This document shows positions 41,644-47,560 of a stretch of DNA of 64,000 nt, one piece after another. Within the stretch, counting starts at the first letter, position 1. Each line of letters opens with the position of its first letter. The notes under the pieces are model-generated. The model saw nothing but the letters and a program-made list of their open reading frames with translations. It was not told the origin of the DNA and searched no databases. The translations under genes were made by a program, and so were the position numbers. The DNA comes from Gonapodya sp. JEL0774 (taxonomy: Eukaryota): assembly GCA_027604505.1 (NCBI GenBank), contig JADIIX010000027.1, forward strand, positions 124,001 through 188,000, read 5' to 3'.

Positions 41644-43795
41644 TTACACATATGAACGTGCCAAAGTTCGAATCTCTTCTTTGAAGGATTCCGACAGCAA
41701 GTCAAGATTAATGCTGTAGATTGAAGGTAACGAGAATGGTCAAGAAGCCATTCTCTCTCAATTTGACTTGAGGAGGGTTACTCACTCATTGTAATCTGCA
41801 GGTGAAATATGAAGAACGCGATGAGCGGCTTTGCAAGTAGAGCCAATGGTGTCAACTCACCAAGACTAATGACAAAGAAACATCGAAACATTGGTCAGGG
41901 GTCGTTGGTTGTTTCGAGTTATTTTGTCCATTACCATTCCACACCGATCAACTTTGCACGGCACTGCAAAAGGACCACTCACCCGAATGGCATTTCAATA
42001 TTTCGAGCAATCATCTCCACGCCAATCAAGCAATGGGATACTAGGAATACCACAAGTATCTGCGAGGACGGACTCAATAGTTTTGTACACATTAAAAACA
42101 ACGATGCGCAAATACCACGTACCGTCCAGTAGCCCAATAAGTCAACCAGTTGCACAGGTAGAAGAAAGCAATATATAAGGAGAATTTGTCGCAGCAAGAT
42201 ATTGTAGGGTTTGGGACTAAACAAAGCAAACTGCGGTCACGAATCGTTGCCGACAAAAGTCACAGGAACATTACGACCGCGGTCAACCTACACCGGCGTG
42301 CACGCGATTCTCTCCAAGCTGGTGGCCGTCTCTACCGCCTGACTTATCAGATTTTCACAGGAGAACATGAATGGATGGAGTGAGACGACATTGTGTTCAA
42401 CACAAAGCGCAAAGAGACGCGAGAGCGACTGGGCAAGGGCAACTGCGAAATTGTGATGCACGTCATAGTCAGAACGCATGGCGACAACTTTCCTCGCCAA
42501 ACACACACAGGGAAACTTCTCGGGATGCACCGACTCCAACCTCAAAAACCAATCTCTCACAATGGGGCCTCGCGAGTCCGAAAGATCATTCGCAACAGTC
42601 TCTGATATGCTAGGAGCAGGAGTGTTATTCGTCTCCGATATACTAGGAGCAGCAGTGTTATTTGCTAGAGGAATCGGGAGCGTGGAAGGTGGAGTGCGAA
42701 AGTCCGAGCTGACGTAAGACTTCAGATCAAGGGCTTCGGAATAATAGGACTTGTCGGTCCACTGGGACGGTTCAAACTCTGCGAAAAGATCACCTTTGTT
42801 AGTGTTGGGTGAAGTTGAAAGAACCACCCGGAGCCAACTGTGCACTCCCACGGATTCTCCCTTCTAACGAGTTCCATACAGTTCGCTCAAATTTCAGCCA
42901 CTAACTTACCAGCCCTCAAATAATGTTTCACGGAGAACAAAAACGCCACAACAAGCTTGGCGACCTTTTGTGCAGCCTTGTCTCCCAGTTCAGACTTCTG
43001 AACGGTCAGTCCGGTGAAAGCAGCTCGTGCAACATTGCGAAGTTGAGATGTGAGTTGCCCCCAAAGTCGCCGGCCCTCCGAAAAGCGATCGTAAGCTTGA
43101 TTCGAGCGAAATGAAAGCATTAAAGACAGCACAGTGGAAAGCTGTGGTTTTTTGTGTTGGGAGTCGAGTAAGTACGATAAAGGTGACCACAATAGTCTTA
43201 ACATAATGCTTACAAGCGTCACCATCGGCGTTGTTGGTAGCACCACCCTGAAGTCGGACTGCTTGTTCACAATTACCACCAGAGCTGTCCAAACGGTGAC
43301 AATGAGAACGGATGGGAGAGCGTGGAGAATTACGGAGCCTCGGAAGTCAAGCGCAGTGTAGATGATGCTCTACAGGGGCAGATAGTACAGGGGGGGGGGG
43401 GGGGGGGGGGGGGAGACGTGCGCCTGTGGAAAAAATTTCCAGTGGTTCTCAATACANNNNNNNNNNTTCGGGTGACATGGAACCGCGTGAGTTGCTGCTC
43501 CACCTCCACTGCCCCGCGGCCGCCGGGGCGCCCCCGGGCGGGGCGCGGCGCGCGCCGCCCGGCCCCGCCCCGCCGCCCGGCCCCCGCCGCCCGGCGTGCG
43601 CCCGGGGGGGGGGGGCGAGACGTGCAAGAGGTGAAACACTTTCCAATGGTGCTCACTACACATGTCACTCATCCTCGCCGAGCCAGGAACCTCACAAAAA
43701 GCAAGCAGGCTCACCTCCTTCGATTCATGCACGTGTTCCTTAACTGCATCGCGCTTTATTTCTGAGGATTTGCGCGAGAACCACAGCAAATTCAT
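41644..43795 (-). CDS. Bestrophin (RFP-TM/UPF0187) anion channel
   Basis: RGSVIL.., LSLMLSFRSNQAYDRFSEGRRLWG, VKHYLR, LERIACTP, LIYCFLLP, and EMPFG|L|DYN|DINLD rebuilt from micro-exons. The 5' part is interrupted by an N-gap and the start is tentative. Confidence 0.9.
43389..43660. other. Assembly gap (10 N at 43457-43466) with low-quality poly-G/GC-rich and duplicated flanks
   Basis: Long G runs and an N run. Two divergent copies of the same approximately 45-bp sequence occur on either side (gagacgtgcgcctgtggaaaaaatttccagtggttctcaataca vs gagacgtgcaagaggtgaaacactttccaatggtgctcactaca). Confidence 0.85.
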
Positions 43796-44326: not shown

Positions 44327-47300
44327 TTACACGGACTCCTCCTTGCCGGGAAGAATCGCCTCCTTTGACTCCTCCGCCATGGCCAAATCATTGTCCGAAG
44401 AAGCCGCCTTCTTCTTCTTGAACCGGGGAATAAGTGCAGCGACACCGGCGACGATTCCCCAGTATCCAAAGTAGCTGACAACGGTCGCGACGGTTCCACT
44501 GAGAAATTTCATCAGGCAAATTCAGCAAACACAGTGCATGCCAAACAGAGGGGGGAACGACTCACATTGCTCGCCATCCCATAAATGCATTCATAATTTG
44601 GAAGAAGAAGTTCTGCTCGTGGTCGCAGCAGGCACTCATGTCAAAAATGACCGGGGACATTTCGGGGTATTCGGCGGGCATCTCTTGGGGTCCAAGAGGC
44701 TATCGACGATGATGAAGGTTATGAAAAATAACTCCCGTTTATTTTACGAGGTCATAAACACTCACAGTGGTCCAGACATTCTCCTCCTCGCCTGCCGCGT
44801 TCATAACTTGGTATGAAGTGATCATTCCTGCAGCAATGTGGTCCACGACGTGGCAGTGCAGCATCCAGGTTCCGGCATTGTTGACAGTCATTTCAACAGA
44901 ACGGAAGGTGGCAGGAAGAAGCTCCATCACATCACGACGGTGACCTCCCTCGACGAAGGTGTTGCCGTGCCAATGAGCAGTGTGCAAATCAACCTCATTG
45001 CCTGACACATGGAAAACACTCAATTTACAACCTCTTTACCAATGCCGAGAATCGGCAAAAACACCCACCAATAGCAAACACGTGCCAACGAACCCTCTCC
45101 CCCTTGATGGCAACGTAACCGTCCAAGTTGTTGTAGACACGACCGTTCACGGAGTGCATCTTGTTTGATTCATCGAACTCATCCTTAGCATCGTCACCGA
45201 GGGAGGCATAGTCAATCAATTCAGGGGTGTAGGCAGCGATGTTGACGTCACTGGAAAAAAGTTCATTTTAGCGAACATCCAGTACAGTTACCTTTCTGAT
45301 ACGCACATGTAAGTTGACATGCTCTCGTCAAAGACACCAAACAGGGAAATGAACTCGCGAGCGACATCTGTGGGGAGGTTGGTGGCGTCGTTCAAGAATC
45401 CACGCCTGTAGATGAGGATGGGGCCCACGGAGCCAGCGTAGATGTCGTTGCCCTCAGTCAAGTGTGAGTGGTAACTGGAAACACCAAAGTGTGTAAGGGA
45501 AAAGAAAATGCTCGAAGGTTTCCACCGAGAAACTTACGCCCAGAGGATGGAGTTGGGGTCGTTCACAGCTGGTCCAGATTCCTCGGCAATCGCCCAGTTG
45601 TACTGGTACGTCTCTCCAGTGTTGACTGGCGCGCCCATCATGTTCCACTGGGTGGCAGCACCTTCAGAGTCAGGGCGGTAGATGGAACCGTGGGGGTGGA
45701 TAGAAATGGGTGTCGAGGCCATGTTCTGGAACACAATCTGAACCACGTCGCCAACTTCCGCGCGGATGATGGGACCAAGGAACCCTTGCCAGTCGAACTT
45801 GGCCTTGCGGGTGGTAAAGGTATCGTCGGTGTACTCGTAGTAGAGGGCCTTGATGTACCGGGATCCGATTTTGTTCGGGGCGTGAAGGGTGAACACACCG
45901 GCAGTATCCTTCTCGAGCACCAAGGGGTTGCCAGAAACATGGTCGTATCCGGAAGGAGCTAAAATCCAGAATCGAGTGCGATGGGCATCACTACACGATC
46001 ACGAACGACGACGCACACTGAGACTCACCGTAGTCCCATTCGGTCTCCTCAGCGGCAATGTAGTAAGTGCGAACCTTGCACGTGGTCCTGGCAGTGCCGT
46101 TGAGAGAAGGGCAGTGCACATTCTCGGCATTGAGCTCAATCTTCGGTCCGGAAAGGGGTGCCTCTGCGCGCTTACGGAACGAGTTGGTGGAGACGTGCGA
46201 AGTCTTCTCGGGGTATGTAAGACCCGCATTAGCAAGCTGGAAGGTTTGTCGCAAAAACGCAAAGCAGAAAGATGAGAAAATGATTCCAGCTTCAGACAAA
46301 AAATGATTCCAGCTTCAGACAAATCAGATCGGGAAACACTCACAGCAGTCTTCAGGGAATCCGGGGTAATCGGAGCTGGGTACGAGGCGTAAAGGGTGTT
46401 GTTCTTTGCTTCGGCGCTCTTGATGTAGCCAAATTCCTCAAATTCGTGGGCAGCGTTGGCAGCAAGACCGGCCGAGATGATGAACATGAAGATGGCCGAG
46501 TAGAACAAGAAAGTCTTGAGTTTGAGCTGGGCGAATCCACTGTGGAGGAGCTTGCCGACCAAGATACCGAGGAAAATACCGAGAAGACCGGGAATGATGA
46601 TCGAGTACGGTTCACCTTGACCAACCTTTTGTTGAGAAGTAAAAGTGAGGCTTAAACACAGAATAAATATCGACCAGGAGAAAAGAGATCGGAACTTACA
46701 CCTGTGAGGAAGATCACCGATTCGAGACCTTCACGTAGAACAACAGAGAAAGTGAGGAAAAAGAGCGCCCAGGGTCTGTCAACTTGTTTGCTTTCTTCGG
46801 TGTCTTTGACAACAAAGTCCTTCTTGGTGGAGGCGTCGTCGGAACTGGAGTCCACGACTGTCACAGAGGATTCAGCACGGTTGACTTCAACCTCGGTCTC
46901 GGGTGTTCCAAGGCGTTCCTTGGCAATTTCCTTCTTGGCGGTTTCGGCGAGACCGGCCTTGAGCATCCGGCGTTCCCATTTCGCCTCGAGGTCACCGGCA
47001 TGGAGCATACCGAAACCCATGATGGTGAGGAGAATGCACGCGAGGAACTTGAAAGAGCCCTCCCTGTGAGAAAAGAATAATCACGAGATTGAGCACAGCT
47101 GAGGACTTGGAGAAAAGGGACAGGGACGAAACCCACCACACGGGTTCGAAAGAACCGAAGAGGTCCTTCTTGAGGACATAGAAGACAACTGAGAACGCGA
47201 TTCCTACGAGAATCGAAATAGCCAGTCCGAGTCCAACTCCCAACCAAATCTGCTTCCGCAGGCGCTTGACTAGGGCAGGGTGACGCGAAGCCGTCTTCTG

Positions 47301-47560
47301 GACGAAGTTGAGAAGAACCCCAATGACCACCGCAGCCTCCAGGGCCTCACGGAACAGAATAAACAGAGCACCTGGGAGTTTTGTTGGAAAGAATACGAGG
47401 ATCAGGGAAAACTGAATCACCGGGAGTTCGCGGGCATACTCGTCCCAGCGCGTCCAGCGGATGGATGCTTCCGTCCCACATTTCCGGTAGATATATCATG
47501 GTTCCAGGTCCAAGAAGTGATGTGCCCAGACTCACCAGCGTTGAAAAGATTAGTGGGCAT
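44327..47560 (-). CDS. FTR1: FTR1 iron permease with an inserted two-domain ceruloplasmin-like multicopper ferroxidase (808 aa, 11 exons)
   Basis: Exons: 47560-47536, 47371-47137, 47063-46700, 46625-46344, 46236-46029, 45958-45538, 45474-45307, 45250-45069, 45001-44766, 44699-44566, 44498-44327. All introns are GT-AG and phase-consistent, total 2427 nt. Ftr1 motifs: FREALE, WEG, LREGLE, CC..NAFMGW..SYFGYW. MCO motifs: HPHG, YHSH, HTAHWHG, HCHVVDHIAAGM. Confidence 0.93.
46277..46322. repeat. 23-bp perfect tandem duplication inside the intron joining the FTR1 and oxidase parts
   Basis: aaaatgattccagcttcagacaa x2. Confidence 0.9.

What the first reader, a model, noticed from the sequence alone, without database searches (positions are those of the whole stretch)
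44327..47560. Single-chain ferroxidase-permease: a multicopper oxidase inserted into extracellular loop 6 of FTR1
Seen: 11 phase-consistent GT-AG exons give one 808-aa ORF. It reads Ftr1 TM1-TM6 (both RExxE iron-channel motifs: REALE, REGLE), then, via a phase-0 intron (46237-46343), a complete multicopper oxidase. A second phase-0 intron (44700-44765) leads to the remainder of Ftr1 (DMSACCDHE..IMNAFMGW..TVVSYFGYW = end of loop 6 plus TM7). The oxidase is therefore nested inside the permease, not appended to it. Established: fungal reductive iron uptake uses two separate proteins, Fet3/FetC and Ftr1/FtrA, and Fe(III) is channelled to Ftr1 through extracellular loop 6. Inference: this gene hard-wires the ferroxidase at that hand-over loop, giving a one-gene Fe(II)-oxidation/Fe(III)-import machine. 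I know of no characterised example, but cannot confirm novelty without a search.
Basis: partly seen in the sequence, partly recalled or inferred. Interest (0 to 1): 0.95.

Follow-up and report, generated by a model that had tools for sequence, protein, structure and literature searches.

The report
Iron oxidase nested inside iron permease
A gene of an aquatic fungus is predicted to make one protein in which a copper oxidase, equal to one third of human ceruloplasmin, sits inside a loop of an iron-import permease; it likely assembles in threes to oxidise and take up iron, a job that yeast does with two separate proteins.

Summary
Confirmed. Eleven GT-AG exons give 808 residues: FTR1 helices 1-6, an oxidase, then the end of loop 6 and helix 7. 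These equal residues 1-808 of Gonapodya sp. JEL0774 KAJ3341544.1, which NCBI extends into a bestrophin gene. Eight protein clusters carry the fusion, including Hyaloraphidium, Cladochytrium and Nowakowskiella (three chytrid classes). Their oxidases group together in a tree.

The insert is not Fet3-like. It has two domains, equal to one third of ceruloplasmin, with all 12 copper ligands and ceruloplasmin's four Fe(II) ligands. Two-domain oxidases work only as trimers, so a ring of three oxidases on three permeases is inferred. A kexin-type site before the oxidase may nick the chain.

Expression, trimer and activity are untested. Ten paper searches found no description of it. The scan had not noted it on other DNA; it had noted a different oxidase-ZIP fusion.

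The parts
44327..47560 (-). Whole gene, 11 exons, 808 aa: FTR1 permease with a two-domain ceruloplasmin-type oxidase nested in loop 6
   Evidence: identical to residues 1-808 of KAJ3341544.1
47536..47560 (-). Exon 1 (aa 1-9), start codon; no signal peptide
   Evidence: first residues align with Hyaloraphidium and Nowakowskiella starts
47137..47371 (-). Exon 2 (aa 9-87): TM1 with REALE (47351-47337), basic loop 1, TM2
   Evidence: (FTR1 E 6e-12)
46700..47063 (-). Exon 3 (aa 87-208): TM3, long charged loop 3, TM4 with REGLE (46735-46721)
   Evidence: FTR1 E 3.6e-10
46344..46625 (-). Exon 4 (aa 209-302): TM5, TM6, start of loop 6 with HEFEE and sequon N283
   Evidence: FTR1 E 1.1e-7; FTR1 profiles stop at position 213-215 of 282-284
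46237..46343 (-). Intron 4, phase 0, 107 nt, 5' junction into the insert; holds no ATG
46168..46179 (-). FRKR (aa 322-325) in the linker, candidate kexin/furin-type cleavage site (inferred)
   Evidence: KR or RR in 7 of 8 fusion linkers, 3.0 expected from shuffles
44802..46113 (-). Two-domain ceruloplasmin-type oxidase (aa 344-695, exons 5-9). Cys344-Cys355 pair. Domain 1: H459, H461, H514, H516. Domain 2: H635, H638, H640, H677, C678, H679, H683, M688. Predicted Fe(II) ligands: E595, H600, D682, E631
44700..44765 (-). Intron 9, phase 0, 66 nt, 3' junction; the spliced join aligns without a gap to Hyaloraphidium
44566..44699 (-). Exon 10 (aa 708-752): rest of loop 6 with E717-x-P-E720 and Cys731-Cys732, both kept in the 3 of 3 fusion records that reach this far
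44327..44498 (-). Exon 11 (aa 752-808): TM7 (about 44497-44429), basic stop-transfer stretch, cytosolic tail, stop codon
   Evidence: (Cladochytrium match E 1.6e-16)

Best explanation
The gene is predicted to make one 808-residue chain in which a two-domain, ceruloplasmin-type copper oxidase lies inside loop 6 of an FTR1 iron permease, and three such chains likely assemble so that the oxidases form a ring outside the membrane that would oxidise Fe(II) and pass Fe(III) to the permeases below. Shown: the exon structure, the order of parts, both RExxE motifs, all 12 copper ligands, the four residues matching ceruloplasmin's Fe(II) site, and conservation in three chytrid classes. From known families: two-domain oxidases form the oxygen-reducing copper cluster between domain 1 of one subunit and domain 2 of the next and are active only as trimers; in ceruloplasmin the fourth Fe(II) ligand also comes from a neighbouring two-domain unit. 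Inferred: Fe(II) binds E595, H600 and D682 plus E631 of the next chain. The electron goes to the type 1 copper (H635, C678, H683, M688) and on to the shared cluster, where O2 is reduced. Fe(III) then moves by acidic loop-6 residues (HEFEE after TM6, E717-x-P-E720 before TM7) to the RExxE channel. Also inferred: the insert came once from a secreted oxidase of zoosporic fungi.
For: Gene model and NCBI's matching model. Eight fusion clusters among the 385 proteins held; four are named: Gonapodya, Hyaloraphidium KAI9022466.1, Nowakowskiella KAJ1533094.1, Cladochytrium KAI8815092.1. Cladochytrium carries TM6, the oxidase, the loop-6 remnant and TM7, and its last part aligns to the C-terminus of a bacterial EfeU (0 of 1000 shuffles as high). 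Copper ligands are present in 119-122 of 122 aligned sequences, with most misses in truncated records. The four Fe-site residues map onto human E597/H602/D684 and E272 in the alignment; residue roles are from PMC11817551. The AlphaFold2 model has block pLDDT above 80 for aa 331-700 except one block at 62, and its best PDB matches are ceruloplasmins (rmsd 2.4-3.8 A over 352-377 columns). The trimer rule is from PMC13151041 and PMC3738974. Seven oxidase rows (six fusions plus the G. prolifera piece) form one side of a branch, SH-aLRT 99, inside a group of eukaryotic stand-alone two-domain oxidases at 94 (quick tree). The Cys344-Cys355 pair is in all 8 fusions and in the two zoosporic-fungal stand-alones, but in 0 of 4 algal or choanoflagellate and 0 of 97 other stand-alones.
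Against: Only one record besides the window's own reaches TM7, and it lacks TM1-5, so no second full-length record was seen. The window's own last part matched EfeU only weakly (61 of 1000 shuffles). Pfam found no FTR1 in the Cladochytrium last part, and the Atlas hit there is a lead only (0.81). The Fe-site residues are family-wide (94-95 of 97 stand-alones), so they point to a metal oxidase and not specifically to coupling with FTR1. No FTR1 gene lay in any of 80 prokaryotic loci of this oxidase family. Loop-6 remnant and TM7 are modelled at low confidence (pLDDT 35-73). A fungal FTR1 from Rhizophagus works without an oxidase (PMC11836134). Skipping exons 5-9 is in frame.
Confidence: 0.68

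Rival explanations
1. The chain is made in one piece but is cut in the Golgi at FRKR (aa 322-325) by a kexin-type protease. That would leave a six-helix permease and an oxidase anchored by TM7, with the topology of Fet3 or hephaestin, held together because TM7 completes the permease. It would be a polyprotein rather than a lasting single chain. This is compatible with the trimer and with iron uptake.
For: KR or RR occurs in 7 of 8 fusion linkers against 3.0 expected from shuffles, P about 0.003 if rows were independent. An xRQ motif lines up in Hyaloraphidium, Cladochytrium, P0122 and P0159. The linker is otherwise poorly conserved (15-24% identity). That kexins cut after KR/RR is recalled knowledge.
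Against: The rows are related, so the P value is too generous. Hyaloraphidium has no KR/RR, only RVR and ERQ. The hit in P0122 lies next to TM6, not at the shared position. The sites could be idle relics of the donor's propeptide.
Confidence: 0.3
2. The two parts are fused but iron is not handed over. The oxidase would oxidise Mn(II), Cu(I) or organic substrates, or protect the cell surface, and the permease would take up iron by itself.
For: The Fe-site residues are shared by almost all stand-alone members. The nearest genes of those members are mixed: in 70 of 132 neighbour ORFs scanned, one Fur, one ZIP, one ferritin and one CbtA, with no recurring partner. RiFTR1 needs no oxidase. A characterised type B two-domain oxidase acts as a laccase.
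Against: The insert sits in the loop that receives Fe(III) from Fet3 in yeast (PMC11817551). Both parts have been kept together across three classes. The nearest solved structures are ferroxidases, not laccases.
Confidence: 0.12
3. The nested oxidase completes its copper and iron sites with separate, secreted two-domain subunits. The oxidase ring would then be a mixed trimer, and the permease need not be trimeric.
For: Stand-alone members with signal peptides exist in Quaeritorhiza and Paraphysoderma, and mixed rings are geometrically possible (inference).
Against: No second Gonapodya oxidase of this family appeared among the 120 listed hits or (only the best 120 of 1141 and of 3349 were listed), and none lies in the window.
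Confidence: 0.07
4. The fusion is an artefact of gene modelling. An oxidase gene lies inside an FTR1 intron, and the true mRNA joins exon 4 to exon 10 to give an ordinary 403-residue FTR1.
For: Both flanking introns are phase 0 and the skip is in frame. NCBI annotates the G. prolifera oxidase as a separate partial protein. NCBI's model of this locus does contain a false read-on elsewhere.
Against: The oxidase has no start of its own: intron 4 holds no ATG and the first Met after TM6 is residue 451, inside domain 1. Three other named fungi have gene models that join the same parts in the same order. Four metagenomic records look like intron-blind calls (retained intron, or a stop at a splice donor) that run from TM1 or TM4 into the oxidase in one frame (inferred, their DNA was not seen).
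Confidence: 0.04

Closest known systems
Yeast Fet3p-Ftr1p ferroxidase-permease complex (FetC-FtrA in moulds)
   Same: Seven-helix FTR1 permease with RExxE motifs in TM1 and TM4; oxidase outside, next to loop 6, where the DASE motif takes Fe(III) from Fet3 (PMC11817551, passages).
   Different: One gene instead of two; oxidase inserted into loop 6; oxidase has two ceruloplasmin-type domains rather than Fet3's three; trimer predicted.
Ceruloplasmin and hephaestin (six-domain ferroxidases)
   Same: Best sequence and fold matches (E 1.8e-214 summed over three units). Domain 1 carries the cluster ligands of ceruloplasmin domain 1; domain 2 carries those of domain 6 and the Fe(II) site.
   Different: One two-domain unit instead of three in tandem; joined to an FTR1 importer, whereas these serve the exporter ferroportin as separate proteins.
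Stand-alone two-domain ceruloplasmin homologues such as Fusarium oxysporum FOYG_17127
   Same: One third of ceruloplasmin, predicted homotrimer, found patchily in fungi, bacteria and archaea (PMC6994591, section 10 read). My searches show many such stand-alones at 43-50% identity. FOYG_17127 itself was not aligned here.
   Different: Secreted and separate; that section reports no link to a permease and no activity test.
Type B two-domain multicopper oxidases (SLAC, CjMCO)
   Same: Type 1 copper in domain 2 only; cluster ligands split between the two domains.
   Different: Only 17-20% identical in structure alignments; soluble laccases; no membrane part.
Chlamydomonas FOX1-FTR1
   Same: An FTR1 permease paired with a copper ferroxidase (PMC3759009, passages).
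   Different: Two genes. That FOX1 is a six-domain ceruloplasmin-like protein is recalled and comes from no call.
Engineered Fet3-Ftr1 chimera in yeast (recalled, about 2006; not seen in any call)
   Same: A single chain that holds both activities.
   Different: Man-made, end-to-end as recalled, three-domain oxidase.

Membership tests
FTR1 iron permease family | Pfam PF03239 above its cut-off | tested here: met
   135.4 bits against 25.3, residues 10-274, profile 4-213 of 284
FTR1 iron permease family | NCBIfam TIGR00145 above its cut-off | tested here: not met
   145.2 bits against 303.8; the match stops at the insert, profile 215 of 282
FTR1 iron permease family | RExxE motifs in TM1 and TM4 | tested here: met
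   R16-E17-E20 and R197-E198-E201, kept in every fusion record that covers them
FTR1 iron permease family | Seven membrane helices, loop 6 outside, C-terminus inside | tested here: met
   Seven hydrophobic segments; basic loop 1 and tail; helices in the model. Predicted, not measured.
FTR1 iron permease family | The helix after the insert is FTR1's own TM7 | tested here: inconclusive
   For: Cladochytrium last part matches EfeU, 0 of 1000 shuffles, matches the window at E 1.6e-16, Atlas top hit an FTR1 cluster at 0.81. Against: window direct 61 of 1000, no Pfam FTR1 hit. No ordinary fungal FTR1 was on hand.
FTR1 iron permease family | Acidic DxxE motif in loop 6 | tested here: inconclusive
   E717-x-P-E720 kept in 3 of 3 records; equivalence to yeast DASE not aligned
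FTR1 iron permease family | Iron transport | not testable with these tools
   needs an uptake assay
Fet3/FetC three-domain ferroxidase | Three cupredoxin domains with the copper cluster inside one chain | tested here: not met
   Two domains in 350 residues; matches one unit of ceruloplasmin; Fet3 only E 8.8e-4
Ceruloplasmin/hephaestin six-domain oxidases | Six cupredoxin domains in one chain | tested here: not met
   One unit aligns three times to ceruloplasmin
Ceruloplasmin/hephaestin six-domain oxidases | Fe(II) site of three acids and one His, the fourth ligand from the neighbouring unit | tested here: met
   E595, H600, D682, E631; residues present, binding not measured
Type B two-domain multicopper oxidase | Type 1 copper ligands in domain 2 only | tested here: met
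   H635, C678, H683, M688; domain 1 has Ser515 in its HxH motif
Type B two-domain multicopper oxidase | Eight His for the trinuclear cluster, four per domain | tested here: met
   H459, H461, H514, H516 and H638, H640, H677, H679
Type B two-domain multicopper oxidase | Homotrimer with the cluster between subunits | not tested
   The complex predictor was not available; inferred

The most novel reading that the evidence does not exclude
A lineage of chytrid fungi has built a one-gene iron importer from the two-domain ancestor-type unit of ceruloplasmin. Three chains form a ceruloplasmin-like ring with three full catalytic and iron sites on top of three FTR1 channels. A Golgi cut may turn the permease's seventh helix into the oxidase's anchor. 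It would be the first natural ferroxidase-in-permease chain and the first two-domain oxidase with a defined role in iron uptake.
Probability: 0.6. Interest if true: 0.9.

Novelty: new variant of a known kind. Interest (0 to 1): 0.8.

Why it matters
A 2025 review states that it found no report of Ftr1 being purified and that no experimental structure exists (PMC11817551), so how Fe(III) passes from oxidase to channel is still inferred from mutants. A natural single-gene version with a large, rigid, predicted three-fold ectodomain would be a direct target for purification and cryo-EM, and one construct could test channelling in yeast. It would also give a function to the two-domain ceruloplasmin-type oxidases, long discussed as evolutionary missing links (title of Nakamura 2003 in the reference list), and show that an FTR1 permease tolerates a 350-residue enzyme in loop 6 and probably a trimeric state. 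Current database records hide the architecture: they are named 'hephaestin-like' or 'Cupredoxin', and are truncated or over-extended.

Tried and rejected
No whole genome is held for this window, so other FTR1, Fet3 or stand-alone oxidase genes of this fungus could not be counted. Sequencing runs: none was listed, so splicing was not checked on reads. The complex predictor was not available, so the trimer was not modelled. The wide VIA fold search was busy and gave no result. A fold without an alignment was useless (mean pLDDT 36). The Atlas gave no usable hit for residues 1-808. A PDB sequence search with exon 2 showed no FTR1 structure, only weak helical matches. The careful tree did not finish; the quick tree is quoted; P0294 and P0365 were left out as too short.

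Rejected: Fet3 type for the insert. Rejected: NCBI's 1061-residue model, whose extra part needs a 1047-nt intron across the N gap where the gene's other introns are 56-164 nt, enters the bestrophin exon in another frame, and has no counterpart in Cladochytrium. Rejected: a recent prokaryotic origin of the insert, since the fusion rows group with eukaryotic stand-alones and the window is an intron-rich fungal neighbourhood. Upstream motif scan: three GATA-type sites on the coding strand and one on the other in 1.5 kb, no Aft-type site, no control run; not used. Lawton 2009 is not held. No paper supplements were opened; gene lists there could mention these proteins.
Full report
Observation. I rebuilt the gene from the window. 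Eleven minus-strand exons from 47560 to 44327, joined at ten GT..AG introns of 56-164 nt, give one open frame of 808 residues. The introns at 46343-46237 and 44765-44700 are phase 0. Hydropathy gives six segments before residue 270 and one at 755-776. REALE (16-20) and REGLE (197-201) fall in the first and fourth segments. Pfam finds FTR1 on exons 2, 3 and 4, Cu-oxidase_3 on exon 6 and Cu-oxidase_2 on exon 9; exons 5, 7, 8, 10 and 11 had no relevant hit as single pieces. Exon 6 is 100% identical to KAJ3341544.1, named by NCBI 'hephaestin-like 1' of Gonapodya sp. JEL0774. That record has the same residues 1-808 and then 253 more. The extra part comes from a separate bestrophin gene at 42291-43369. 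It needs a 1047-nt intron across the N gap and enters the bestrophin exon in another frame, so I treat it as a modelling error.

What the insert is. It is not Fet3. Exon 9 matches ceruloplasmin at E 1.7e-45 and Fet3 at 8.8e-4; exon 6 matches ceruloplasmin at 4.3e-63. Residues 356-696 align three times to ceruloplasmin, once to each two-domain unit. An AlphaFold2 model from a 113-row alignment has block pLDDT above 80 for residues 331-700 except one block at 62; membrane helices 1-6 score 58-80 and the loop-6 remnant with helix 7 scores 35-73. Its top five PDB matches are ceruloplasmins; factors V and VIII follow, then two-domain laccases. Domain 1 has H459, H461, H514 and H516 and no type 1 cysteine. 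Domain 2 has H635, H638, H640, H677, C678, H679, H683 and M688. These are present in 119-122 of 122 aligned sequences. That is the type B two-domain pattern (PMC13151041, passages). The review PMC11817551 (passages) gives ceruloplasmin's Fe(II) sites as E935/H940/D1025 plus E272 from another domain, and E597/H602/D684 plus E971. Counting along the alignment, E595, H600 and D682 match E597, H602 and D684, and E631 matches E272. These four are also in 94-95 of 97 stand-alone relatives, so they mark the family as likely metal oxidases and do not by themselves prove coupling to the permease.

The fusion is conserved. A search with residues 1-300 among proteins of 583-1857 residues gave 4 hits from the 7996 candidates scored: the record itself, Hyaloraphidium curvatum KAI9022466.1, a Logan protein P0122, and a bacterial EfeU, P0123. 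A search with the G. prolifera piece listed 120 of 3349 hits, one of them a further fusion, P0159. A profile search listed 150 of 6785 hits and added four. Testing all 385 held proteins with the FTR1 part gave eight clusters with both parts: the window's, Hyaloraphidium, Nowakowskiella sp. JEL0078 KAJ1533094.1, Cladochytrium replicatum KAI8815092.1, and P0122, P0159, P0294, P0365. Eight is a floor, because only the top of each list was seen. NCBI taxonomy puts Gonapodya, Hyaloraphidium and Cladochytrium in three classes and two phyla. Identity to the window is about 47-62% in the helices, 45-57% in the oxidase, 15-24% in the linker, and 41-43% after the oxidase. All seven other records are incomplete. 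Hyaloraphidium stops before helix 7, Cladochytrium starts at helix 6 and runs through helix 7 to a tail, and the rest stop inside the oxidase. The G. prolifera record is the oxidase alone, 80% identical, marked partial; its context was not seen.

Is it nested or appended? FTR1 profiles stop at position 213-215 of 282-284, so about a quarter of the family model is missing before the insert. The stretch after the oxidase is conserved between the window and Cladochytrium (E 1.6e-16). The Cladochytrium stretch aligns to the last helix of EfeU better than all 1000 shuffles; the window's own stretch was reached by 61 of 1000. The Atlas's top two hits for it are clusters in which 34% and 13% of members carry FTR1, at 0.81 and 0.80, which is a lead only. 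Pfam found no FTR1 there. With no ordinary fungal FTR1 on hand, I rate nesting as likely, not proven by a direct test. Loop 1 (6 Lys/Arg, no acids) and the tail (5 Lys/Arg in 15) are basic, which fits the yeast topology of N outside, C inside and loop 6 outside.

Is it one chain? Skipping exons 5-9 would give an in-frame 403-residue FTR1, so this had to be weighed. The oxidase has no start of its own. Four metagenomic records show marks of intron-blind gene calling: P0159 keeps a 21-residue insert, P0294 breaks off at the same spot, P0365 breaks off where the window has intron 6, and P0122 and P0159 both stop at the same copper motif. Each still runs from helix 1 or 4 through helix 6 and the linker into the oxidase in one frame. 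I infer that the 5' junction needs no splice in those organisms; their DNA was not seen. A skipped isoform in Gonapodya is not excluded.

Origin. Stand-alone two-domain oxidases of this family, mostly 350-420 residues, are common in prokaryotes and occur in Quaeritorhiza, Paraphysoderma, Tribonema and others. In an 89-row quick tree the six fusion oxidases and the G. prolifera piece form one side of a branch (SH-aLRT 99), within a group of mostly eukaryotic stand-alones (94); the root is a midpoint and no clade test was run. A cysteine pair just before domain 1 is shared only by the fusions and the two zoosporic-fungal stand-alones. One insertion from a secreted fungal oxidase is the simplest reading and is inferred. 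None of 80 prokaryotic loci held an FTR1 gene, and 70 of 132 neighbouring ORFs scanned showed no recurring partner.

How it most likely works. Two-domain oxidases are active only as homotrimers (PMC3738974, passage), with the copper cluster between domain 1 of one chain and domain 2 of the next. The fourth iron ligand, E631, would also come from the next chain. So three chains likely form a ceruloplasmin-like ring outside the membrane, each tied by a linker of about 70 residues to helix 6 and by the loop-6 remnant to helix 7. Fe(II) would be oxidised at the ring and Fe(III) passed by acidic loop-6 residues to the RExxE channel, as shown for Fet3 and Ftr1 by mutants and chelator tests. The trimer was not modelled and no activity was measured. 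The linker carries KR or RR in 7 of 8 records against 3.0 expected (rows not independent). A kexin-type cut at FRKR would leave the oxidase anchored by helix 7, with the topology of Fet3; I give this about 0.3.

What is known. The parts are known. FTR1 with a separate Fet3 or FOX1 is textbook. A stand-alone one-third ceruloplasmin was described in Fusarium and predicted to be a trimer (PMC6994591, passages and section 10). A man-made yeast Fet3-Ftr1 chimera is recalled and was not seen in any call. Ten searches of the held library returned no listing that describes a natural FTR1-oxidase chain; 'Gonapodya' with 'multicopper' gave 0 papers. I read passages of seven papers (the five above, PMC3129051 and PMC11836134); the rest were seen as listings only. 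Subscription journals and supplements were not covered. The scan's notes hold no look-alike by sequence and one different case by words, an oxidase-ZIP fusion in a bacterium, which I did not check.

Verdict. The feature is real and conserved. It works like a ferroxidase-permease pair and is an FTR1 by most tests, but its oxidase is neither Fet3 nor a six-domain ceruloplasmin. I class it as a new variant of a known kind, interest 0.8.

Noticed in passing
window 42291-43369 (-): A bestrophin-family gene (PF25539) lies downstream; its 5' end is probably lost at the N gap 43457-43466. NCBI's KAJ3341544.1 joins it to the FTR1-oxidase gene.
   Followed up: partly
window 43470-43620: A very G+C-rich, self-complementary-looking stretch beside the N gap, with C and G runs on the other side; possibly an assembly-breaking hairpin.
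   Followed up: no
window 46237-46343 (intron 4): A direct repeat of about 20 nt occurs twice in tandem inside the intron.
   Followed up: no
P0155 (Paraphysoderma) and P0128 (Quaeritorhiza): Stand-alone two-domain ceruloplasmin-type oxidases with an N-terminal hydrophobic leader and a C-terminal hydrophobic stretch, the topology of Fet3. They may be the unfused partners of FTR1 in those fungi.
   Followed up: partly
L002:4335-4841, L004:3986-4831, L011:6202-6921, L030:1566-2018: Single prokaryotic loci place the two-domain oxidase next to Fur, a ZIP transporter, CbtA or a ferritin-like gene.
   Followed up: no
P0352, P0383, P0178/P0225/P0240: Other fusions of the same oxidase: behind a long helical repeat region (cluster member named TPR protein), behind a DinB-family domain, and before an extra C-terminal domain in archaeal records.
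   Followed up: no
window 1000-64000: Neighbours are ordinary eukaryotic genes: protein kinase, GRIM-19, histidine kinase, Cys/Met enzyme, EMG1, aspartyl protease, PP2C-domain protein, cyclophilin, lipase. No other iron gene among 77 long ORFs scanned.
   Followed up: partly
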